From the NCBI GenBank assembly GCA_044326465.1, contig JBIRBD010000001.1:1-41762 (forward strand): DNA of 41,762 bases, written 5' to 3'. Origin of the DNA: Chthoniobacterales bacterium. Its GTDB lineage: Bacteria > Verrucomicrobiota > Verrucomicrobiia > Chthoniobacterales > UBA6821. The translations under genes and the position numbers were made by a program. Under the pieces are notes generated by a model. The model worked only from the letters and a program-made list of their open reading frames with translations. It was not told the origin of the DNA and did no database searches. Of this stretch, positions 2,644 through 41,762 are shown piece by piece (positions within the stretch are counted from its first letter, which is position 1; every line of letters starts with the position of its first letter).

Positions 2644-3849
2644 CTAGACTGTTTCCGCAATTGCTTTTACGACGGAAGCTATTTCATCTTGGCGCAACTC
2701 AGGAAAAATTGGCAATGCGAGTGTTTCTTCTGCGGCGTACTCGGATTCGGGAAAGTCTCCTTTTTTATAACCTAAGTAAGCAAAACATTCCTGTAGGTGT
2801 AGTGGCACTGGATAATAAATCGCATGGCCAATTTTTTTGTTTTTTAGATGGCTGATAATTTTTTCACGTGCCCCACTAGCAGAACTACCAATAACTCTAA
2901 TCACATATTGATGGTAAATGTGATGGTCACGCAACGCTGATGCTGCAAATGGCTCCTCAGGCAAGGTTATGCGATCGAGTAACCCAGCCGCAGTGAAGGC
3001 TGCTTTATAAACTGCAGCATTCGCACGACGTTTTGCATTCCATTCATTAATAAAGGGCAGCTTCGCATGCAAGATGGCAGCTTGTAAGGCATCCATACGA
3101 AAATTTCCACCGACCATTTTATGATAATAACGCTCTTCCATGCCATGATTGCGCAGACAACGAATCCGTTCTGCAATACCTGCATCGCGACAAACAGCAA
3201 GCCCAGCATCACCAGCGGCACCCAGATTTTTACTTGGATAAAAACTAAAATAAGAGGCATCTGCAATCGTTCCAGCTTTAATGCTTTTTCCATGACTTGG
3301 AAAGTCGGTGCCAATGACCTGCGCCGCATCTTCAATTACGAGCAAGCCATACTCCTTGGCAAGCGCGTTGATAGCGTCCATAGCGCAACAAGTTCCAAAG
3401 AGATGAATTGGTATGATCATCTTTACCTTATTTCCAGAGGCTGTGCGCAAGGTGCCATCGGTATCACGCAGAAAAGAAGCAAAAAGAGTTTTTAATTTTT
3501 CTGGATCCATCATGTAAGTCGCTGGATCAATATCACAAAAAACAATTTCTGCGCCAACGCGATGGACGCATCCTGCCGTTGCAAAAAAAGTATAAGGCGT
3601 TGTAATTACAGCATCACCAACACCAATCTCATAGGCCATTAGTAAAGTTAAAAGGCCATCGGTGCCAGAGGAGACAGCGATAACATCAGCACTATTTCCA
3701 AGAAAAGATTTTAGCGCTTGCTCTAAGGCAGTGACCTCCGGACCAAGAATAAATTGCTGATGAGTGAGCACACGCTCTACAGCTTTCTTTATTACGTCAT
3801 CAATAACAGGACCCTGGCGAGAGAGATCAAAAAGGGGGATGGGTTGCAT
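2644..3849 (-). CDS. DegT/DnrJ/EryC1/StrS-family PLP-dependent sugar aminotransferase
   Basis: The family signature is present throughout (LGPEVTALEQAL, SSGTDGL, HLFG, and FYPSKNLGAAGDAG with the PLP lysine). It is a full-length 401-aa ORF. Confidence 0.9.
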   Translation of the reverse strand: MQPIPLFDLSRQGPVIDDVIKKAVERVLTHQQFILGPEVTALEQALKSFLGNSADVIAVSSGTDGLLTLLMAYEIGVGDAVITTPYTFFATAGCVHRVGAEIVFCDIDPATYMMDPEKLKTLFASFLRDTDGTLRTASGNKVKMIIPIHLFGTCCAMDAINALAKEYGLLVIEDAAQVIGTDFPSHGKSIKAGTIADASYFSFYPSKNLGAAGDAGLAVCRDAGIAERIRCLRNHGMEERYYHKMVGGNFRMDALQAAILHAKLPFINEWNAKRRANAAVYKAAFTAAGLLDRITLPEEPFAASALRDHHIYHQYVIRVIGSSASGAREKIISHLKNKKIGHAIYYPVPLHLQECFAYLGYKKGDFPESEYAAEETLALPIFPELRQDEIASVVKAIAETV

Positions 3850-3885
3850 AAGAAATATTCTTTTAAAATTTGACCTTCATTGGAC

Positions 3886-4102
3886 GTAATTGCTCATCTC
3901 CTTCTGATCAAGAAGAGGAGCAAAAAGTTGTCGGTTGTTAGTTGTTTTTATTCGAAAAATTTATTTTTTAAGAGTCGCATTTTATTAGCCTCTTAGGGCG
4001 ATACTTTTTTTTAGCAGCTAAGAAAAAGTTATTTCTTTACTATCAAGCGAGAACCAATAACCAACAAGCATTGCTTATTTTCAGAAGGAGATGAGCAATT
4101 AC
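3886..4102. mobile_element. MITE family B, copy B1 (217 bp)
   Basis: It has perfect 21-bp terminal inverted repeats, gtaattgctcatctccttctg (3886..3906) and cagaaggagatgagcaattac (4082..4102). It is flanked by the 8-bp direct repeats cattggac (3878..3885) and cgttggac (4103..4110), matching 7/8. It aligns along its whole length to 18880..19091, and there is no ORF. Confidence 0.85.
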
Positions 4103-4153
4103 CGTTGGACAAGCTTTATATACCATTCGTGCGTGCGCCAGCCGCTATGGTTT

Positions 4154-4654
4154 TTATTTTACAATACCAAACTCAGCACGACGATTCTTAGCCCAAGCCG
4201 CATCGTTCTCGGCTGGATCAGCTGGCATTTCTTTGCCAAAACTCACCGTCTGAATTTTATTAGCAGACAAACCTTGTGCAATTAAGGCTTCGCGGACCGC
4301 TAAGGCACGTCTTTCTCCAAGGCTACGGTTGTACTCTTCGGTGCCGCGATCATCGGTGAAGCCTGCTACAATCACGGTTTTGCCAGAGCTTCGAACTCCT
4401 TGCACGACGCTTAGAATTTTGCTGGCTTGATTGGCGCCAACACTGGTGCTATCAAACGCAAAATAAACAGGTGAATATTCTCCACGCTCAACATTAGAAC
4501 CCATGAAGTTTGCGCTTTCCGACCGATCACTCAAGGGCGTTCCACTGACGTAGTCACCATCGACGCCAGCATACTGTTTATTTTTTTTATTCGCACATGC
4601 TGAGATCATCGTTGTCAGAAGGAGGAGAAGAACGAGAGAAAATTTATTTTTCAT
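4154..4654 (-). CDS. pal: Peptidoglycan-associated lipoprotein (OmpA-family)
   Basis: It has a lipoprotein signal with a lipobox (LLLLLTTMISAC) and a C-terminal OmpA-like domain (VAGFTDDRGTEEYNRSLGERRALAVREAL ... NRRAEF). tolB lies immediately upstream on the same strand. Confidence 0.88.
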   Translation of the reverse strand: MKNKFSLVLLLLLTTMISACANKKNKQYAGVDGDYVSGTPLSDRSESANFMGSNVERGEYSPVYFAFDSTSVGANQASKILSVVQGVRSSGKTVIVAGFTDDRGTEEYNRSLGERRALAVREALIAQGLSANKIQTVSFGKEMPADPAENDAAWAKNRRAEFGIVK

Positions 4655-4711: not shown

Positions 4712-4786
4712 ACAATGTTACATAAAATCTTGAAGTTTTATAGTTCTATTTTTAGCAGCAAAGTAACTTTGATCATTCAACTTGAC

Positions 4787-4957
4787 TTAAACCTAAAAAC
4801 GTGAATCAAAATAAAAATTTTGACGCAATATAGTCGGCCTGAAGCGGTTCGTTCTAAAGCCTCACTAACCATGCAGGTTAGCCACGGCTTCATAACAACC
4901 AGCTTCCAATCCAACTCCTTACGCCAACGTTCTCATTTTCATTCACGTTTTTAGTAA
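4787..4957 (+). repeat. Family A palindromic element, divergent subfamily copy (A4, 171 bp)
   Basis: Its termini, ttaaacctaaaaacgtgaat ... attcacgtttttagtaa, include a 14-bp perfect inverted repeat and are the same as those of A1-A3. It has the same length, a shared gacgcaatat block and an equivalent apical hairpin (ctaacc-atgc-aggttag). Confidence 0.7.
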
Positions 4958-4962
4958 CCACT

Positions 4963-6114
4963 CTAGCGAGACCAGGTAGGCTCTGTGACTTGACTCAGAC
5001 CACTAATGACAGAAATTGATTTTCCATTTTGCGTGTCAAACAGGATGAGGCTCTCTTTGGTACTAAAAATCAAATGCCGCGAGTCAGGACCCCAGACAGG
5101 ATTTTCACCTTGAGCCACAATGTGAGCGGAGCCACTTCCTAAATCAAGTACAGCTACCGAAAAAGCACCTGCTGAGCGGACATTGAAGGCGACACGTTTT
5201 CCATCAGGTGACCAATTAGGTTCTGTAGCATAACTAAATCCTGTTGAAAGGAGTCTGGCTGAGCCACCGGAAGAACTAACGCGATAAAGTTGAGGAGAGC
5301 CATTTTCGTCCGATGAATAAATTATTTCGTCTCCATTGGGTGACCACGTGCCGCATGATGCCGCACCACGTGTGCGCGTGACGCCTTGTACGCCACCACT
5401 CATGCTGACAACATAGAGCTCCGGACGCCCATCTTTACTCATAGTGCAGACTAAGCGCGTGCCATCAGGAGAAAAACGAGGTCCAGAATTAGTCCCTGGA
5501 TATTTTATCAAATGCAAACGCGATCCTGTGGCAATATCGATGAGATAAATATCGGCATAGCCACTTTGATAACCTGTGTAAGCTATTTTTCGGGCATCAG
5601 TGCTAAGTGACGGGGAAACGCTAATGGCATTGTCATGGGTAATTTGACGGCCATTGGATCCATCATAGTCGGCAGTATAAATCTCTTTGCGTCCGCTGCG
5701 TGTGCTGACAAAACCAATCTTGCTCATGGCAATGCCAGGTTTACCGGTTAATGTTTCTACAATGTCGTTACAAAAATGATGTGCCATGCTGCGCGCATCG
5801 CCGGAATAATTTTTTGTAAGTACTATCGAACCTGCGCGATCCACTACTTTGCCCTGTAACATTCCACCGGCGACGACCCCACTAATCACAAACGATGCCT
5901 TGTCGGCAGCCTGTAACGAAAACCAACCTGCCAGTGTAAGATCATTGGAGAGAATTTTGGAAACCGCTGAGCCATCACTGCCGCTAACACCACTCAATGT
6001 TACGTTGAGGGCATCGCTCTTGCGAACCGTGATAGTGGGGGCCTCCGAAGCTTGTAGAAAAACAGAAGGAACAATAAACGCGAAAGCAACAACAAAAAGA
6101 AAGAAATATTTCAT
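4963..6114 (-). CDS. tolB: Tol-Pal system beta-propeller protein TolB
   Basis: It has a signal peptide (MKYFFLFVVAFAFIVPSVFLQASEA), an N-terminal TolB domain and repeated SPDG/WSPDG propeller blades. The track start at 6129 is a TTG 5 codons upstream, and I prefer the ATG at 6112..6114. Confidence 0.88.
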   Translation of the reverse strand: MKYFFLFVVAFAFIVPSVFLQASEAPTITVRKSDALNVTLSGVSGSDGSAVSKILSNDLTLAGWFSLQAADKASFVISGVVAGGMLQGKVVDRAGSIVLTKNYSGDARSMAHHFCNDIVETLTGKPGIAMSKIGFVSTRSGRKEIYTADYDGSNGRQITHDNAISVSPSLSTDARKIAYTGYQSGYADIYLIDIATGSRLHLIKYPGTNSGPRFSPDGTRLVCTMSKDGRPELYVVSMSGGVQGVTRTRGAASCGTWSPNGDEIIYSSDENGSPQLYRVSSSGGSARLLSTGFSYATEPNWSPDGKRVAFNVRSAGAFSVAVLDLGSGSAHIVAQGENPVWGPDSRHLIFSTKESLILFDTQNGKSISVISGLSQVTEPTWSR

Positions 6115-6211
6115 TGCACTATGTTGCAATCAAAGCAGTGACTCTGGCAACCATGATTTATAGATCTGCTGCTCGAGAATAAACAAATTAACGCGATAAG
6201 TAATGACGTTC

Positions 6212-7438: not shown

Positions 7439-7473
7439 GTTGTTAGTTGTTGGTTGGTTTTGTTCGAAAATTT
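7439..7473 (+). repeat. Unpaired G/T-rich heptamer array, MITE-B subterminal-like fragment
   Basis: gttgtta gttgttg gttggtt ttgttcgaaaattt matches the B1 interior at 3934..3962 (gttgttagttgtttttattcgaaaaattt). It lies 16 nt from the lgt start codon, where it is C/A-rich in lgt sense, and no TIR is present. Confidence 0.55.
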
Positions 7474-7506
7474 GGGTATAAATTACAGTCTGTATTTTCT
7501 TATTTT

Positions 7507-8566: not shown

Positions 8567-8631
8567 TTCAACGATAAATGTCTTCTCCTCATTACTCATT
8601 ACCCATTACTCGGTACTCATTACTCTTCACT
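8552..8631. repeat. Inverted heptamer-array pair spanning the exbD stop and tonB start
   Basis: The left arm atgagtaatagg (8552..8563) abuts the exbD stop codon. The right arm is six tandem heptamers, cattact cattacc cattact cggtact cattact cttcact (8590..8631), which encode TonB residues 5-18. Confidence 0.75.
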
Positions 8632-9255
8632 GCGCTTGCTTTTTTCCTCGCGGTGATTTTCCATGGCGCCCTCTTTCTTCTTGGGCGCTCCTTTTATAAG
8701 CCTCCAGAGTATGCCGTAAGAGAAGGCAATTCGAATCTAGAAGTAGGGCTTGTTGATGCGGCGTCTATGGGAAAAAATTCTTCTGCAACCATTGATGAGA
8801 AGGTAACAACTGCCAAAGTAAAACAAGCAGCAACCCTTGTTTCTGAAAAAAAACTTGAACTATCTTCCCGCACGCATCCAGGAGAAGCGAAAAAGATTTC
8901 TTCTGTTGCCTCAGAAAAAAAAATCGCTGGGCTTTTGAAGTCAGCCCCTAGCTATCTTCGTAACCCGCAACCAACCTATCCAGAAGCAGAGAGAATAAGC
9001 GGTCACGAGGGAGTTGTGTTGCTTCGTGTTGTAGTTACTAAGGAGGGAAAAATTCTAAAAGCTACCATTGAACACTCTTCAGGATATGACGCGCTCGATA
9101 AACGCGCGCTTGAAACAGTGTTAGATTCGTGGAGTTTTCGCCCTGCGCTATTAAATCAGGAGCCAGTTAAGACAGAAATTTTTATTCCAATTCATTTTTC
9201 TCTTAACTCTAAAAACTCAAATTCTAATAAAAAAGCCGGGCTCCTTAACCAATAA
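8578..9255 (+). CDS. tonB: Energy transducer TonB-family protein (in TolA-like position)
   Basis: It has an N-terminal TM anchor (LLFTALAFFLAVIFHGALFLL), a low-complexity linker and a C-terminal TonB_C domain (YPEAERISGHEGVVLLRVVVTKEGKILKATIEHSSGYDALDKRALETVLDSWSFRPA). It follows exbB-exbD. Confidence 0.78.
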   Translation: MSSPHYSLPITRYSLLFTALAFFLAVIFHGALFLLGRSFYKPPEYAVREGNSNLEVGLVDAASMGKNSSATIDEKVTTAKVKQAATLVSEKKLELSSRTHPGEAKKISSVASEKKIAGLLKSAPSYLRNPQPTYPEAERISGHEGVVLLRVVVTKEGKILKATIEHSSGYDALDKRALETVLDSWSFRPALLNQEPVKTEIFIPIHFSLNSKNSNSNKKAGLLNQ

Positions 9256-11673: not shown

Positions 11674-11688
11674 GTCTGGCTTGTGGAA

Positions 11689-11858
11689 TTAACCTAAAAA
11701 CGGCAATGGATCGTTATAAATTAGCGCAATATGCTCAGCCTCAAAATGATTTTTCAACCGGCTCACGTACCTTCCAGGTATGCTTCGCCGTTTTAAAAAT
11801 CACTTTTAGACCAAGCCTTTACGCTAATTTATTAACTCCCATCACCGTTTTTAGTTAA
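11689..11858 (+). repeat. Family A palindromic element, copy A1 (170 bp)
   Basis: Its termini are ttaacctaaaaacggcaatgg ... ccatcaccgtttttagttaa. The left half pairs with the right half along the whole element (for example gttataaattagcg / cgctaatttattaac), with the apical hairpin tacct-tcc-aggta. It is ~97% identical to 41634..41762. Confidence 0.85.
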
Positions 11859-13379: not shown

Positions 13380-13383
13380 AAAA

Positions 13384-13536
13384 GGAATTGAAGTGGAAAG
13401 TTGAAGTAGAATTTGGAATATCAGCTGAGTGCAAAATTACTGGAAAAATTCAACGTTGATATTAAGTTGATGTGCCAGACGGCAAGAACTATCTTCGTTT
13501 TAAATTACTTCAACTTCAACTTTCAACTTCAACTTC
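13384..13536. repeat. Inverted 6-7-nt array pair filling the cbpA/serS divergent spacer
   Basis: The left arm is ggaattgaagtggaaagttgaagtagaattt (13384..13414). The right arm is aaatt(acttca)(acttca)(actttca)(acttca)(acttc) at 13502..13536. The arms are reverse complements in several registers (gaaagttgaag / cttcaactttc is perfect), and the core is 87 nt. Confidence 0.75.
13467..13495 (+). promoter_or_regulatory. Candidate serS promoter inside the array core
   Basis: TTGATG (13467..13472), a 17-nt spacer and TATCTT (13490..13495). This would start transcription at about 13502, making the C-rich right array the whole serS leader. It rests on a pattern match only. Confidence 0.3.
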
Positions 13537-13545
13537 TGCATTCAA

Positions 13546-17049: not shown

Positions 17050-17115
17050 GTCGTGATGATAGTGAAAATAATGACAAAGGACAAAAACAAAGGCTCTGTT
17101 TTAAAAGTAAAAAAA

Positions 17116-17160
17116 GTTGAGGGGTTGAGGGGGTGCTGCCAAACCTCTCTCTCCCTCAAC
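17116..17160. repeat. GTTGAGGG / CCCTCAAC octamer hairpin
   Basis: gttgaggggttgaggggg (17116..17133) faces cctctctctccctcaac (17144..17160) across a 10-nt loop. The G-rich arm is 5'. Confidence 0.65.
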
Positions 17161-17172
17161 TTCGCAATTAAA

Positions 17173-17296
17173 GGGGTTTGAGGGGAAAAAAGTTGAGGGG
17201 GTGAGCATATTACGTTAATTTGTCACGATCCATTGCCGTTTTTAGATAGCCCCTCAACCTCTCAACAGCGACTTTAGTCGCGACTCAACCCCTCAA
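17173..17296. repeat. Composite: G-rich octamer arm + inverted family-A left-end fragment + module D (D2)
   Basis: 17173..17201 is ggggtttgaggggaaaaaagttgaggggg. The reverse complement of 17202..17245 equals ctaaaaacggcaatggatcgtgacaaattaacgtaatatgctca, a family A left end truncated after atatgctca. 17250..17296 is cccctcaacctctcaac-agcgactttagtcgc-gactcaacccctcaa, which is module D in reverse. It ends 8 nt before the purH ATG. Confidence 0.7.
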
Positions 17297-17304
17297 TTTT
17301 TTTT

Positions 17305-18837
17305 ATGAAAATTCAACGTGCTCTTCTTTCTGTCTCTAATAAAACAGGCCTTATCGATTTTGCTCGCGGTCTTTCTGATCGAGGAGTCGAACTCATCGCC
17401 AGTGGAGGTACAGCCAAAGCACTTGCTGCAGTTGGTATTCCTGTTAGTGAGATTTCAGACTTCACAGGCTTTCCTGAAATGATGGATGGTCGTGTTAAAA
17501 CGCTTCATCCAAAAGTCCATGGGGGATTGCTCTACCTACGCGACAATCCTACACACGTTATGGAAGCTGAAAAACATAACATCCTTCCCATTGATCTGGT
17601 TTGCGTAAATCTTTATCCGTTTGTCGAGACGATCTCAAAAAAAGGAACGACGCTTGAGGAAGCAATTGAAAAAATTGATATTGGCGGTCCTTCAATGATT
17701 CGCAGTGCTGCTAAAAATCAACATGCCGTTACTGTTGTCGTCGATCCTGCTGACTACTCACGCATTCTTGATTCTATGACGGCTCATGGAGGAAGCACAA
17801 CCCCTGAATTGCGCGCACGCCTTGCTGTAAAAGCCTTTGCATTAACGGCCTCTTATGATCATGCGATTAGCTCTTACCTTGATGGTGAAATGGTTTCGAA
17901 CAATTTGTTTTCCCTTGCGTTACCGCAAGTAAGCCACCTTCGCTACGGCGAAAATCCACATCAACAGGCAGAGCTCTATGGAGATTTCTTTGACTATTTT
18001 GAAAAGCTGCATGGCAAAGAACTTTCTTTTAATAATATTCTCGATATCACTGCGGCAACACGATTGATTTCTGAATTTCAAAAACCGACGGTTGCCATTC
18101 TAAAACATACCAACCCATGTGGTGTTGGAAGTGATATGGATCTCTGTGTCGCTTGGGAGAAGGCGTTTGCGACCGATCGTTCCGCTCCCTTTGGAGGCAT
18201 CATCATCATCAACCGACCCGTTGATGAGAATTTAGCACGTATGATTTCAGAAATTTTTAGCGAGGTAATTATTGCTCCTGAATTCACGGCTGAAGCACGG
18301 GCTCTGTTGCAAAAGAAAAAAAATCTTCGATTAATGCGCCTGATTCAAGAAATACCTACTGCGACACGCGATATTCGTTCCGTTATTGGAGGGCTTTTAA
18401 TTCAAGATGCTGACACTGATGATGGAAGTACGATTGGAAAAATGGAACATCACGTTGTCAGCAGCCGCCCACCGACTCGGGAGGAGCTTGAAGCAATGGA
18501 ATTTGGCTGGAAAGTTGTCAAACATGTGAAAAGTAATGCCATTGTTTATGTTGCCCGTGATCGCACACTTGGTATTGGTGCAGGGCAGATGTCACGCGTT
18601 GACGCCTCACGCATTGCTGTTTGGAAAGCCGCAGAAGCAGGTCTCTCGCTCAAAGGAAGCGTTGTTTGCAGCGATGCTTTCTTTCCATTTGCTGACGGCC
18701 TTGTTGCTGCCGCCGACGCTGGTGCAACAGCCGCGATTCAACCGGGTGGGTCAGTACGCGATCCTGAAGTAATTACTGCTGCCAATGAACGGGGTCTTGC
18801 AATGGTCTTTACCGGCATGCGTCATTTTAGGCACTGA
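17305..18837 (+). CDS. purH: Bifunctional AICAR transformylase / IMP cyclohydrolase
   Basis: It has the MGS-like N-terminal domain ([11 protein letters not shown]), an AICARFT domain and the C-terminal ...GMRHFRH. Confidence 0.95.
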
Positions 18838-18879
18838 AATATCTCTGAAAGCAGTGTTAAGGTTATTCATCCTCTGGTT

Positions 18880-19091
18880 GTAATTGCTCATCTCCTTCTG
18901 GCGAAGAAGACGAGCAAGAAGTTGTCGGTTGTCGGTTGTTCGAAAGATTTTTTTTTTAAAAATCCTATTTTATCAGCCTCTTAGGGCAACGCTTCTTTTT
19001 TAGCAGCTAAGAAAAAGTTATTTCTTCACTACCAACCGAGAACCGAGAACCAATAACCATTGCTTATCTCCAGAAGGAAATGAGCAATTAC
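18880..19091. mobile_element. MITE family B, copy B2 (212 bp)
   Basis: The TIRs are gtaattgctcatctccttctg (18880..18900) and cagaaggaaatgagcaattac (19071..19091), matching 20/21. A perfect 8-bp target-site duplication ctctggtt sits at 18872..18879 and 19092..19099. The element fills the purH/aspS convergent spacer and ends 8 nt from the aspS stop codon. Confidence 0.88.
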
Positions 19092-19099
19092 CTCTGGTT

Positions 19100-20872
19100 T
19101 TATTTTAGTTGATGCGTTGAAGCAATGGAGAGCATCTTCAAATCATTCGCAGGAATAAGCGACGGTGAATTAGTCATCAATTCTGCGCCACGATTATTTT
19201 TTGGAAAAGCGATGACATCGCGGATCGATTCTTCATAAGCTAGGAGTGCAACTAATCGATCCAGACCTAGTGCAAGACCACCATGTGGTGGAGCTCCATA
19301 ACGGAAGGCTTCGAGGAGGTGGCCGAAAAGTTTTTTTTGCTTTTCTTCATCAATGCCGAGCACCGCAAAAAGTTGCGCTTGTAAATCTCCTTCATGAATA
19401 CGCAGGCTGCCACCGCCAAGCTCGACACCGTTGAGTACGATGTCATAGGCTTCGGCACGAATTTCTCCAAATTCACCTGACTCAAGCAGGTGATGATCTT
19501 CTTGTTTAGGGCGAGTAAAGGGATGATGGACCGCATTCCATTTTTGATCTTCGAGACTGAATGCCAGTAGAGGAAAATCAACCACCCAAAGAAAATCGAG
19601 TCGTTCGCGATCGATTGGAATTTTTTGTAGCTTTGCCGTGTGCAGGCGTACACGACCGAGCGCTGTACAGGCTATTTCCCAAGTATCAGCACCAAAAAGA
19701 ATGAGGTCGCCCTCCTCAATGTTGAGCCGTTCTACCAGGGCAGCTTTTTCGGCATCACTAAAAAACTTAACAATGGGGGATTTCCATTCGTTGTTTTCAA
19801 CTTTGATAAAAGCGAGCCCCTTAGCTCCAGCGCTTTTAGCGATGCCTGTTAGTTCTTCAATCTGCCCCGTTGTGATTTCGGCAAAGCCTTTAGCATTAAT
19901 CGCCTTTACCACACCTTTATTATCAAGCGCGCCACGAAAAACTTTAAATTCGCTCTGAGAAAAGATATCACTGACGTCTTGTAGCTCCCTATCAAAGCGC
20001 ATATCAGGCTTATCGCTACCAAAGCGATTCATAACATCTTTGTACGTGAGCCTTAAAAAAGGTGTTCTAATTTCGATACCGCGCGCTTCGCGGAAAACTT
20101 TTTGAAATATTCGTTCAATGAGGCCGAAGATTTTTTCTGCAGAAATAAAGGAGGCTTCAATATCAACCTGCGTAAATTCGGGCTGGCGATCCGCGCGTAA
20201 ATCCTCATCGCGGAAGCAGCGCGCAATTTGAAAATAGCGATCAACGCCACTGACCATGAGCAATTGTTTATATTGCTGCGGAGCTTGCGGCAGGGCGTAG
20301 AAGTGACCAGGGTTTAATCTTGAGGGAACAATAAAATCGCGTGCTCCTTCCGGTGTGCTTTTAAAAAGAAGAGGGGTTTCAACTTCCCAAAATCCTTCTT
20401 CGTCGAGTTGGTCACGGATGATTTTTGTTACGCGATGCCGAAGCCGCAAATTAGCAGTCATCTCAGGGCGACGTAAATCGAGGTAGCGATAGGTCAATCG
20501 TAAATCTTCATTCGCAATACGCTCTTCCATTGGAAAAGGGGGCACTTCGGAGTGATTAAGAAGTGTCAGCATGGAGGCAACAACTTCTATTTCACCGGTT
20601 GCAAGTTTTGGATTTTCTGTACCAGTAAGGCGGCCAATAACTTCACCTTTTACGGTGATGACATCTTCTGAACGCAAACAATGAGCTGCTGTAGTAGCCT
20701 CTGGATAAAGTTCAGGACGAAAGACAATCTGTGTCATTCCATCGCGATCGCGTAGATCGATAAAAATCAAACCGCCATGATCACGTCGTGATGCAACCCA
20801 GCCACTCAAGGTTACTTGACGGCCAATATCTAAAGCGCGTAACGCGCCACAATGACAATCTCTATAATGCAT
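19100..20872 (-). CDS. aspS: Aspartate--tRNA ligase
   Basis: It has an OB anticodon-binding domain (QVTLSGWVASRRDHGGLIFIDLRD), class II motifs (FRDEDLRADRQPEFTQVD, GGGSLRIH, GLALGLDR) and a GAD insertion. The start is set to the ATG giving MHYRDCHCGALR. The track start at 20908 is a TTG inside the family C repeat. Confidence 0.93.
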   Translation of the reverse strand: MHYRDCHCGALRALDIGRQVTLSGWVASRRDHGGLIFIDLRDRDGMTQIVFRPELYPEATTAAHCLRSEDVITVKGEVIGRLTGTENPKLATGEIEVVASMLTLLNHSEVPPFPMEERIANEDLRLTYRYLDLRRPEMTANLRLRHRVTKIIRDQLDEEGFWEVETPLLFKSTPEGARDFIVPSRLNPGHFYALPQAPQQYKQLLMVSGVDRYFQIARCFRDEDLRADRQPEFTQVDIEASFISAEKIFGLIERIFQKVFREARGIEIRTPFLRLTYKDVMNRFGSDKPDMRFDRELQDVSDIFSQSEFKVFRGALDNKGVVKAINAKGFAEITTGQIEELTGIAKSAGAKGLAFIKVENNEWKSPIVKFFSDAEKAALVERLNIEEGDLILFGADTWEIACTALGRVRLHTAKLQKIPIDRERLDFLWVVDFPLLAFSLEDQKWNAVHHPFTRPKQEDHHLLESGEFGEIRAEAYDIVLNGVELGGGSLRIHEGDLQAQLFAVLGIDEEKQKKLFGHLLEAFRYGAPPHGGLALGLDRLVALLAYEESIRDVIAFPKNNRGAELMTNSPSLIPANDLKMLSIASTHQLK

Positions 20873-20896
20873 AAAATCTAGTTTGGAGTTTAGCCC

Positions 20897-20997
20897 CAAT
20901 GCCGTCAACTTAAGGCGTTAAGTGACGGCAAGGGGTTCAGGTGACAGGGTTATAGGCTACAGGTAAGTAGGCCTACGGCAAAAAGAAAAAAATTTAT
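20897..20997 (+). repeat. Family C element, copy C2 (distal end missing)
   Basis: The sequence begins caatgccgtcaacttaag-gcg-ttaagtgacggcaagggg, in which gccgtcaacttaaggcgttaagtgacggc (20901..20929) folds as a 12-bp stem with a 1-nt bulge. A heptamer run follows (ggttcag gtgacag ggttata ggctaca ggtaagt aggccta), then cggcaaaaagaaaaaaatttat. It is collinear with C1 and C3 up to that point. Confidence 0.65.
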
Positions 20998-28948: not shown

Positions 28949-29120
28949 TTAAGCTGAAAACGGCAATGGATCGTGGTAAGTTAACGCAATATGCTCAGGC
29001 TCAAAATAAATATTTAACCGGTTTACCTACCCATTGGGTATGCTTCACCGTTTTAAAAATTATTTTTAGACTAAGCCTTTAAGTTAATTTTATCACTCCC
29101 ATCACCCTTTTTAGGTTTAA
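28949..29120 (+). repeat. Family A palindromic element, copy A2 (172 bp, diverged)
   Basis: ttaagctgaaaacggcaatggatcgtggtaagttaacgcaatatgctcagg ... cactcccatcaccctttttaggtttaa is collinear with A1. Substitutions in the left arm are mirrored in the right arm. Confidence 0.8.
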
Positions 29121-41633: not shown

Positions 41634-41762
41634 TTAACCCTAAAAACGGCAATGGTTCGTTATAAATTAGCGCAATATGCTCAGCCTCAAAATGATTTTT
41701 CAACCGGCTAACGTACCTTCCAGGTATGCTTCGCCGTTTTAAAAATCATTTTTAGACCAAGC
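41634..41762 (+). repeat. Family A palindromic element, copy A3 (truncated by window end)
   Basis: Its 129 nt align with A1 (11689..) with 3 substitutions and 1 single-base indel. Confidence 0.85.

What the first reader, a model, noticed from the sequence alone, without database searches (positions are those of the whole stretch)
3878..4110. Family B is a bona fide MITE with 21-bp TIRs and 8-bp target-site duplications, and no transposase is in sight
Seen: two copies (3886-4102 and 18880-19091) share near-identical 21-bp TIRs (gtaattgctcatctccttctg). Their interiors are collinear at roughly 80% identity by eye. Both are flanked by 8-bp direct repeats of unrelated sequence, ctctggtt/ctctggtt (perfect) and cattggac/cgttggac (7/8), which is the hallmark of transposition. 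Both copies sit exactly between genes, and B2 ends 8 nt from the aspS stop. Interior fragments without TIRs occur at 7439-7473 and 4746-4770. Each TIR reads AAGGAGATGAGC inward-out, which is an SD-like GGAG fused to an ATG. That created the spurious ORF at 4091. Inference: an 8-bp TSD and a ~20-bp TIR point to mobilisation in trans by an IS element elsewhere in the genome. The element's subterminal heptamer arrays link it to the array palindromes of the first finding.
Basis: seen in the sequence. Interest (0 to 1): 0.65.

Follow-up and report, generated by a model that had tools for sequence, protein, structure and literature searches.

The report
Small IS66-type transposon remnant (MITE)
Two 212-217 bp palindromic repeats between genes are non-coding "hitch-hiker" transposons that carry the exact end sequence of an IS66-family insertion sequence found in related freshwater bacteria; this is an ordinary kind of mobile DNA, now with a parent family named.

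Summary
B1 (3886-4102) and B2 (18880-19091) have 21-nt terminal inverted repeats (GTAATTGCTCATCTCCTTCTG). They are 84% identical. Their similarity stops exactly at the repeat ends. Each is flanked by its own 8-bp direct repeat, 7/8 for B1 and 8/8 for B2.

New here: the same 21-mer forms both ends of a 1,725-bp insertion sequence in lake metagenomes. That element encodes one 450-aa IS66-family DDE transposase. Its flanks reconstruct an 8-bp target duplication (CTTACAAA) across one continuous ORF. A 620-bp internal-deletion derivative sits in a Verrucomicrobia MAG. Published single-ORF IS66 elements (ISBst12 group, e.g. ISDge4) have near-identical ends (GTAACTGCTCAGCA) and 8-bp duplications.

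The window comes from a Chthoniobacterales relative. No transposase lies in the window. Family B is therefore a MITE of the IS66/ISBst12 type. Its repeat ends are conserved (41/42) far better than its interior (143/176).

Not shown: an exact empty site, because the orthologous spacers in relatives lack B but cannot be aligned. Also not shown: the parent IS in this genome. Of the two "interior fragments", one is weak and one is not significant.

The verdict is a new member of a known kind, of modest interest. The unexplained part is the heptamer-array cargo.

The parts
3878..3885 (.). B1 left target-site duplication CATTGGAC
   Evidence: 7/8 match to 4103-4110
3886..4102 (+). MITE copy B1 (217 bp), no coding capacity
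   Evidence: folds as a long hairpin on both strands, z = -7.7 and -8.2
3886..3906 (+). B1 left TIR GTAATTGCTCATCTCCTTCTG, 21/21 identical to the ends of the IS66-family element in L041
3910..3923 (+). Degenerate inner arm of the left terminal palindrome (AAGAAGAGGAGCAA). It pairs with the TIR and is homologous to the perfect 19-bp terminal palindrome of the IS
3927..3946 (+). Left subterminal heptamer array GTTGTCG GTTGTTA GTTGTT
4007..4037 (+). Central 31-nt block identical in B1 and B2 (TTTTTTAGCAGCTAAGAAAAAGTTATTTCTT); role unknown
4048..4068 (+). Right subterminal array CGAGAAC CAATAAC CAACAAG, roughly complementary to the left array
4082..4102 (-). B1 right TIR (perfect)
4103..4110 (.). 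B1 right target-site duplication CGTTGGAC
18872..18879 (.). B2 left target-site duplication CTCTGGTT
18880..19091 (+). MITE copy B2 (212 bp), same orientation as B1, between the convergent genes purH and aspS
18880..18900 (+). B2 left TIR (perfect)
19071..19091 (-). B2 right TIR (20/21)
19092..19099 (.). B2 right target-site duplication CTCTGGTT, directly abutting the aspS stop codon (19100-19102)
7439..7502 (+). Weak B-like stretch (array plus TTCGAAAA) in the lgt/tolQ spacer, 74% over 65 nt. It could be a decayed fragment or related spacer sequence
   Evidence: E = 2e-5

Best explanation
Family B is a non-autonomous transposon (MITE) of the single-ORF branch of the IS66 family (ISBst12-like). 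Shown: each copy keeps about 40 bp of each IS terminus and has no transposase gene. That terminus is the 21-bp TIR plus a degenerate copy of the IS's inner palindrome arm. Each copy is bracketed by its own 8-bp duplication. Inferred: an IS66-type DDE transposase supplied in trans, from a full-length IS elsewhere in the genome now or in the past, binds the TIRs. It inserts the element at 8-bp staggered cuts. Repair of those cuts gives CATTGGAC/CGTTGGAC at B1 and CTCTGGTT at B2. The interior is cargo unrelated to the IS. It consists of complementary heptamer arrays around an A+T-rich centre, and it resembles the 'array palindromes' that fill native spacers in this clade. The most economical origin is two IS ends that came to flank such a spacer-type palindrome. 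The 16-19% divergence between copies and the 7/8 TSD of B1 indicate old insertions. The near-perfect TIRs indicate that only copies with intact ends get propagated. Once inserted, the element is a ~215-nt hairpin in any transcript that crosses it. Its effect on pal/DegT and purH/aspS expression (insulation, termination or stability) is plausible but untested.
For: TIRs, collinearity and TSDs. No ORF above 41 aa lies within the elements, and there is no IS66 transposase in the window. The identical 21-mer lies at both ends of a 1,725-bp element, L041/L053. That element holds one transposase ORF (450 aa as called, 461 aa from an upstream TTG). The ORF matches Pfam DDE_Tnp_IS66 at 2e-36 plus DUF6444. 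It also matches NCBIfam 'IS66 family transposase' at 249 bits against a cutoff of 180. A second IS variant (80% aa; L019, L057) has the same 21-mer ends, and homology between the variants stops exactly at ...GCAATTAC. IS target duplication: the left flank ...CTTACAAA|IS (L053, L054) and the right flank IS|CTTACAAA... (L055) join into one uninterrupted ORF. A 55%-identical relative (L058) has ends GTAGCTGCTCATCGCC/GTATTTGCTCAACTGG and an 8/8 TSD, GCCCCATA. Literature: ISDge4 is ISBst12-group, with a single 449-aa transposase, TIR GTAACTGCTCAGCA and an 8-bp DR seen on experimental transposition (PMC12898284). Classic IS66 ends start GTAAGCG/GTAACCG (PMC12888890). A 620-bp deletion derivative that keeps the transposase C-terminus lies in a Verrucomicrobia MAG, L001 2946-3565. 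The window is from a Chthoniobacterales relative, and the closest MAG has the same TIR. TIRs are 41/42 identical against 143/176 for the interior, Fisher p = 0.008. Five short-read contigs from the window's own samples stop 28-100 nt inside B. One of these (L064) instead switches after 32 nt of the B1 end into a different locus upstream of an ABC1-kinase gene, so at least a third TIR-bearing locus exists in that sample.
Against: Only two complete copies were seen. I recovered no exact empty site. The parent IS was found in other metagenomes, not in this genome, and only two close transposase clusters exist in the protein database. The full IS contigs L053, L054 and L057 do not show matching TSDs within a single contig. 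The CTTACAAA duplication is reconstructed across contigs that I take to be assembled chimerically over a repeat. The divergence between copies means the family may be long dead here.
Confidence: 0.87

Rival explanations
1. B is mainly a host regulatory module that happens to carry IS ends. On this view the clade's usual 'array palindrome plus hairpin' spacer architecture acts as a leader, insulator or bidirectional terminator. The IS-type terminal hairpin has been taken over as the hairpin that sits just upstream of start codons. Mobility would be secondary or lost.
For: Native spacers of this genome and its relatives have complementary heptamer arrays and a short hairpin about 10 nt before the ATG. 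In relatives, 'TIR hairpin plus array' modules with no partner TIR lie 2-45 nt upstream of start codons, facing the gene. This holds at all six distinct sites: L004/L011, L005/L014, L008, L022 (before rpmG), L023 and L031. B1's left end faces the DegT start 36 nt away. Relatives have their own array palindrome at that same spacer. B2 supplies a long hairpin between convergent genes that were previously about 50 bp apart.
Against: It does not explain the site-specific 8-bp duplications. Three of the four B ends face gene 3' ends. No promoter-like or terminator-like site lies within or beside either copy; the only two terminator-like matches (4209-4226) fall inside the pal ORF, 107 nt beyond B1's right end, and none was found around B2. 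GGAG abuts the ATG, which is poor spacing for initiation. The six sites were found by an exact-TIR search, which favours conserved copies. This reading adds to the MITE reading and does not replace it.
Confidence: 0.15
2. B is mobilised by a different IS family that also makes 8-bp duplications (for example IS1595, ISL3, IS256 or IS6), and the match to the IS66-type ends is convergent.
For: Several families give 8-bp TSDs (general knowledge). The parent IS was not seen in this genome.
Against: The match is 21/21 to both ends of two variants of an IS66-family element. About 40 bp of terminal palindrome is shared. The GTA..TGCTCA end motif recurs in three independent single-ORF IS66 elements.
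Confidence: 0.04
3. The two copies arose by ordinary duplication or gene conversion of a structured intergenic palindrome (REP/BIME-like or a small-RNA gene), and the flanking 8-mers are coincidence.
For: The element is a strong hairpin on both strands. Both copies are intergenic.
Against: Two independent flanking repeats of 7/8 and 8/8, different at each site, have a joint chance of about 1e-8. Similarity ends exactly at the TIRs. No Rfam family matches. The ends are those of a transposase-bearing IS.
Confidence: 0.02

Closest known systems
ISBst12-group (single-ORF) members of the IS66 family, e.g. ISDge4 of Deinococcus geothermalis
   Same: The end motif matches: B has GTAATTGCTCATCT and ISDge4 has GTAACTGCTCAGCA. 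Both give an 8-bp target duplication. The putative parent (L041) has a single ~450-aa DDE_Tnp_IS66 transposase and no TnpA/TnpB accessory genes.
   Different: B has no transposase. The Verrucomicrobial parent IS has each terminus folded back as a near-perfect 19-bp palindrome. It also carries a conserved 71-aa zinc-ribbon ORF upstream of and antisense to tnp. A 55%-identical relative has no terminal palindromes. The ISDge4 paper reports neither feature.
Classic IS66 elements (IS66, IS679, ISPa75; three ORFs tnpA-tnpB-tnpC)
   Same: The ends begin GTAA. The 8-bp TSD and DDE_Tnp_IS66 catalytic domain are shared features as far as I recall, plus for the domain.
   Different: The parent here has one transposase ORF. 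The ends are GTAATTGC, not GTAAGCG/GTAACCG.
Bacterial MITEs such as MITEAba12, Correia elements, RUP and ERIC
   Same: Small, non-coding, TIR-bounded, TSD-flanked, intergenic and strongly hairpin-forming, with ends copied from an IS (PMC6382973 and PMC10969869 for the class).
   Different: The parent family is different. A 2024 review of prokaryotic MITEs does not mention IS66 at all. My text searches found no paper holding both 'ISBst12' and 'MITE', and none of the top-ranked papers holding 'IS66' with MITE terms describes an IS66-derived MITE.
MITEs that carry internal tandem repeats (the P. gingivalis minisatellite MITE, PMC4596501; clam DTC84, PMC3879986)
   Same: Short tandem arrays lie inside a TIR-bounded element.
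   Different: Here the arrays are two short, mutually complementary heptamer runs next to the termini. They mirror arrays found in the host's ordinary spacers.

Membership tests
MITE (miniature inverted-repeat transposable element) | Small size (tens to a few hundred bp) and no transposase | tested here: met
   217 and 212 bp. The longest ORF that overlaps either copy and is not driven by flanking sequence is at most 41 aa. tblastn with the IS66 transposase finds nothing in the window.
MITE (miniature inverted-repeat transposable element) | Terminal inverted repeats | tested here: met
   21-nt TIRs, perfect in B1 and 20/21 in B2. There are 4 hits against 0 expected.
MITE (miniature inverted-repeat transposable element) | Target-site duplication of fixed length, different at each site | tested here: met
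   8 bp at both copies (7/8 and 8/8), with unrelated sequences.
MITE (miniature inverted-repeat transposable element) | Multiple dispersed copies in the genome | tested here: inconclusive
   Two copies lie in 41.8 kb. Contig L064 from the same sample joins B1's terminal 32 nt to a third locus. Short-read contigs break 28-100 nt inside B. The whole genome was not available.
MITE (miniature inverted-repeat transposable element) | An autonomous element with the same ends | tested here: met
   The 1,725-bp IS in L041/L053-L055 and the variant in L057 have the identical 21-mer at both ends. These come from other metagenomes. Presence in this genome is not testable with these tools.
MITE (miniature inverted-repeat transposable element) | Presence/absence polymorphism with a single copy of the TSD at empty sites | tested here: inconclusive
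   Relatives at 81%, 76% and 74% DegT identity keep pal-DegT synteny and lack B. Their spacers cannot be aligned to define an empty site. Relatives have pdxJ, not aspS, after purH.
IS66 family, ISBst12-like group (for the parent IS, and for B as its derivative) | DDE transposase of the IS66 type | tested here: met
   Pfam PF03050 at 2.2e-36. NCBIfam NF033517 at 249 bits against a cutoff of 180. This applies to the L041 IS, not to B itself.
IS66 family, ISBst12-like group (for the parent IS, and for B as its derivative) | Ends beginning GTAA | tested here: met
   B and the IS have GTAATTGCTCAT... Published ends are GTAACTGCTCAGCA (ISDge4) and GTAAGCGTCC/GTAACCGTCC (classic IS66).
IS66 family, ISBst12-like group (for the parent IS, and for B as its derivative) | 8-bp target duplication | tested here: met
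   B1 and B2. The IS gives CTTACAAA, reconstructed across L053/L055 with a continuous ORF. L058 gives GCCCCATA. ISDge4 gives CCTCGATG.
IS66 family, ISBst12-like group (for the parent IS, and for B as its derivative) | Single transposase ORF, with no TnpA/TnpB accessory proteins | tested here: met
   Only one long ORF lies between the ends of L041. The gene calls in L053-L057 show the transposase plus one 71-aa antisense ORF with no family match.
IS66 family, ISBst12-like group (for the parent IS, and for B as its derivative) | Transposase actually binds and moves the element | not testable with these tools
   This needs a mobilisation assay.

The most novel reading that the evidence does not exclude
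B may be more than a dead MITE. It could be a mobile copy of a clade-specific spacer architecture: complementary heptamer arrays plus a hairpin just upstream of the start codon. In Chthoniobacterales the palindromic IS66-type terminus would then have been recruited repeatedly as that leader hairpin. For example, it sits 8 nt before rpmG in L022, where the window has an unrelated hairpin in the same place. A transposon would thus be distributing, or mimicking, a so far undescribed 5'-leader or insulator module.
Probability: 0.15. Interest if true: 0.6.

Novelty: new member of a known kind. Interest (0 to 1): 0.3.

Why it matters
This gives a concrete, well-bounded MITE family for a poorly studied phylum (Verrucomicrobiota, order Chthoniobacterales). 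It ties that family to the little-characterised single-ORF branch of IS66, for which I found no MITE derivative reported in the searchable literature. Practically, it explains spurious ORF calls (4091-4285), short-read assembly breaks and at least one chimeric contig in this organism's data. It also marks a synteny breakpoint at the 3' end of purH. It supplies the one case in this window where a 'heptamer-array palindrome' is demonstrably delivered by transposition. That bears on how the much more widespread and unexplained array palindromes of this clade arise.

Tried and rejected
1. Copy counting in the source genome failed. The genome-contig scan with the TIR did not return the window's own genome, only relatives and chance coding hits.

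2. I looked for exact empty sites. I fetched orthologous pal-DegT spacers from three relatives and purH downstream regions from two. None contains B, but the spacers are unalignable or synteny differs, so no empty-site sequence was obtained.

3. I considered using a B-internal ORF as a protein handle to fish other copies. No consistent ORF exists.

4. Rfam gave no match at gathering score over the window, and only long-hairpin noise at E about 0.2-0.9 on B1.

5. The sigma-70 promoter and intrinsic-terminator scans found nothing inside B1 or B2.

6. I rejected the idea that the heptamer arrays are subterminal transposase-binding repeats. Both full-length IS variants lack any array next to their termini.

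7. I rejected the idea that the 42-bp terminal palindromes in relatives are independent mini-MITEs. None has a flanking 8-bp repeat.

8. The L005/L014 121-bp element with degenerate TIRs has no TSD and was left unclassified.

9. The B interior was not found in any of the 63 fetched loci (410 kb) apart from the window's own sample.

10. I searched for the parent transposase in the window's own sample. The protein search returned only two close clusters, from other samples.

Full report
OBSERVATION

The two copies are real and placed as stated. B1 spans 3886-4102 (217 bp) and B2 spans 18880-19091 (212 bp). The 21-mer GTAATTGCTCATCTCCTTCTG occurs four times in the window at up to 3 mismatches. 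It forms the two inverted ends of each copy, and only B2's right end has a mismatch. Dinucleotide shuffles expect no hits.

The copies are collinear and 84% identical over 218 columns. Similarity begins and ends exactly at the TIRs, and the flanks are unrelated. B1 is bracketed by CATTGGAC/CGTTGGAC (3878-3885 and 4103-4110). B2 is bracketed by CTCTGGTT/CTCTGGTT (18872-18879 and 19092-19099). Two different flanking repeats of 7/8 and 8/8 have a joint chance of roughly 1e-8.

Five independent short-read contigs from two sequencing runs of the same organism reproduce the flank/TSD/TIR junctions. L006, L047 and L048 cover the left ends. L064 and L065 cover the right ends. The insertions are therefore not artefacts of the window's assembly.

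CONTEXT

B1 lies between the stop of a pal/OmpA-family gene (4154-4654, minus strand) and the start of a DegT-type aminotransferase (2644-3849, minus strand). B2 lies between the convergent stops of purH (17305-18837) and aspS, and its right TSD touches the aspS stop codon.

Removing each element and one TSD copy leaves spacers of only about 78 and 50 bp.

The organism is a relative of Chthoniobacterales (Verrucomicrobiota). Its purH is 85% identical to that of MAG GCA_035287205.1, titled 'Chthoniobacterales bacterium'. The nearest named DegT homologues are also from Chthoniobacterales.

WHAT IT IS

A scan of public metagenome contigs with the outer 19 nt of the TIR gave 35 loci. Many are chance matches inside coding sequence. 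One subset has the TIR followed at once by its own complement.

One contig of that subset (L041, the same record as L053) has the exact 21-mer at both ends of a 1,725-bp segment. That segment contains one long ORF. The ORF is an IS66-family transposase. It matches Pfam DDE_Tnp_IS66 at 2e-36 plus DUF6444. It scores 249 bits against a cutoff of 180 for NCBIfam 'IS66 family transposase'.

A second variant, 80% identical in protein (L019, L057), has the same 21-mer ends. Nucleotide homology between the two variants stops exactly at ...GCAATTAC. This is the boundary that B uses.

Three contigs carry the first variant with different flank combinations. This pattern is expected when a repeat longer than the reads is assembled. 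L053 and L054 read ...GTTGCTTACAAA|IS, and L055 reads IS|CTTACAAAGAAGCG.... Joining those flanks with one copy of CTTACAAA gives a single uninterrupted reading frame. This IS therefore makes an 8-bp duplication.

A more distant single-ORF relative (55% identity, L058) has ends GTAGCTGCTCATCGCC and GTATTTGCTCAACTGG, with a perfect 8-bp duplication GCCCCATA.

The literature agrees. ISDge4 belongs to the ISBst12 group of IS66 and has a single 449-aa transposase. It has ends GTAACTGCTCAGCA and made an 8-bp direct repeat when it was caught transposing (PMC12898284). Classic IS66 ends begin GTAAGCG or GTAACCG (PMC12888890).

A natural intermediate also exists. In a Verrucomicrobia MAG, L001 2946-3565 is a 620-bp element with these ends that still holds the last ~40 codons of the transposase.

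The window itself has no IS66 transposase, and B has no ORF of note. Family B is therefore a MITE derived from, or dependent on, an ISBst12-like IS66 element.

ANATOMY

In the full IS, each terminus is a near-perfect 19-bp palindrome. The outer arm is the TIR and the inner arm is its complement, with RNA folding energies of -27 to -29 kcal/mol. B keeps degenerate versions of these palindromes, so about 40 bp at each end is IS-derived. These are 3886-3923 and 4071-4102 in B1.

GGAG directly abuts the ATG, so I do not read it as a designed ribosome-binding site. It does seed spurious ORFs, including 4091-4285 and 18751-18891.

Inside the palindromes lie three or four heptamers (GTTGTCG, GTTGTTA...). 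Their approximate complement lies on the other side. Between them is an A+T-rich centre with a 31-nt block identical in both copies.

The whole element folds as one long hairpin on either strand. Energies are -71 and -66 kcal/mol, with z = -7.7 and -8.2.

The arrays are absent from both full IS variants. They are therefore cargo and not transposase-binding sites. The B interior was not found in any of the 410 kb of related loci I fetched.

MOBILITY AND AGE

TIR positions are 41/42 identical between the copies, against 143/176 for the interior (Fisher p = 0.008). This fits selection at the level of transposition. The 16-19% interior divergence and the 7/8 TSD of B1 point to old insertions.

There is evidence for further copies. 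All five short-read contigs that reach B stop 28-100 nt inside it or switch locus there. L064 runs from pal through the TSD and 32 nt of the B1 end. It then continues into unrelated sequence upstream of an ABC1-kinase gene. At least one more locus in that sample must therefore share the terminal 30 nt or more.

I could not obtain an exact empty site. Relatives with 81%, 76% and 74% DegT identity keep the pal-DegT-xseA order and lack B, but their spacers are unalignable. Relatives with 85-89% purH identity have pdxJ downstream of purH where the window has aspS. In the closest of them, L042 (89%), a dnaJ-serS-tilS-purD-purH block is shared with the window and ends exactly at B2 on one side. On the other side it ends at another repeat, 11676-11854.

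RIVALS

Plain duplication of a structured palindrome cannot explain site-specific 8-bp repeats or ends identical to those of a transposase-bearing IS. Another IS family with 8-bp TSDs is very unlikely given the 21/21 identity and the shared terminal palindrome.

One reading cannot be dismissed: that the element, or its terminal hairpin, has also been put to use by the host.

In relatives, 'TIR hairpin plus heptamer array' modules with no partner TIR sit 2-45 nt upstream of start codons at all six distinct sites found. One sits 8 nt before rpmG. The window has an unrelated hairpin in the same position before its own rpmG.

Native spacers in this clade have complementary arrays at orthologous positions whose heptamer differs between close relatives on both arms together. 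One example is GTTGAGG/CCTCAAC in the window against GTTTAGA/CCTAAAC in L042 at the purD|purH spacer.

The exact-TIR search biases that sample of six sites. Three of the four B ends in the window face gene 3' ends. No promoter-like or terminator-like site lies within either copy. I rate a host function as possible (about 0.15) and additional to the MITE reading, not an alternative to it.

COMPARISON AND NOVELTY

By structure and inferred mechanism, this is a standard bacterial MITE. What is new is the family assignment. A 2024 review of prokaryotic MITEs does not mention IS66. My text searches found no paper holding both 'ISBst12' and 'MITE', and none of the top-ranked papers holding 'IS66' with MITE terms describes an IS66-derived MITE. 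The host phylum and the palindromic IS termini are also new details. I file it as a new member of a known kind, of modest interest (0.3). The surrounding array-palindrome phenomenon is the more intriguing open question.

Noticed in passing
window 17050-17304 vs L042 9782-10000; window 13380-13545 vs L042 5780-6217: Orthologous divergent spacers in a close relative (purH 89% aa) keep the same layout: array, centre, complementary array, then a hairpin about 10 nt before the ATG. The heptamer, however, differs on both arms together (GTTGAGG/CCTCAAC vs GTTTAGA/CCTAAAC; GTTGAAG/CTTCAAC vs AACAGGGATGAA/TTCATCCCTGTT). This looks like concerted change or rapid turnover of 'array palindromes'.
   Followed up: partly
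L004 7812-7900, L008 8290-8367, L022 8890-8973, L023 3780-3871, L031 945-1010, L005 4679-4800: In Chthoniobacterales and Verrucomicrobia relatives, the IS66-type terminal palindrome followed by a heptamer array occurs without a partner TIR. At all six distinct sites it lies 2-45 nt upstream of a start codon and faces the gene (including rpmG and an SDR gene).
   Followed up: partly
window 11694-11854, 28954-29114, 41640-41762, 4793-4954, fragment 17202-17245; also L042 about 5925-6170: A second MITE-like family of about 161 bp has ends CTAAAAACGG.../...CCGTTTTTAG and apparent TTAA flanks. A copy is inserted in the dnaJ|serS spacer of the relative L042 but not in the window's.
   Followed up: no
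window 11676-11854 and 18880-19091: The dnaJ-serS-tilS-purD-purH block shared with relative L042 ends exactly at repeat elements on both sides in the window. Relatives have pdxJ after purH, where the window has B2 and then aspS-hisS.
   Followed up: partly
L041 1812-2026 (= L053 333-548), L057 183-398: The Verrucomicrobial IS66-type element carries a conserved 71-aa CxxC...CxxC zinc-ribbon ORF upstream of and antisense to the transposase. It has no significant Pfam match.
   Followed up: partly
L041 350-391 and 2033-2074; L057 135-176 and 1824-1865: Each terminus of the full IS is a near-perfect 19-bp palindrome (TIR, a 4-nt loop, then the complement of the TIR). Both arms change together in some copies (L022, L001 left end). 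A 55%-identical IS66 relative (L058) has no such palindrome.
   Followed up: partly
L064 735-850 (SRR21875704): A short-read contig joins pal, the TSD and 32 nt of B1's right end to an unrelated sequence upstream of an ABC1/UbiB-type kinase gene. This is either a chimeric join at a third TIR-bearing locus or a strain variant.
   Followed up: partly
window 8578-8632: A heptamer array (CATTACT/CATTACC...) lies inside the 5' end of the predicted ORF 8578-9255. The true start may be further downstream.
   Followed up: no
window 19100-20908: The mechanical aspS ORF starts at a TTG. The likely true start is the ATG at 20872 (MHYRDCHCGALR...). The 590-aa product from that start is the one on record in public assemblies.
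   Followed up: yes
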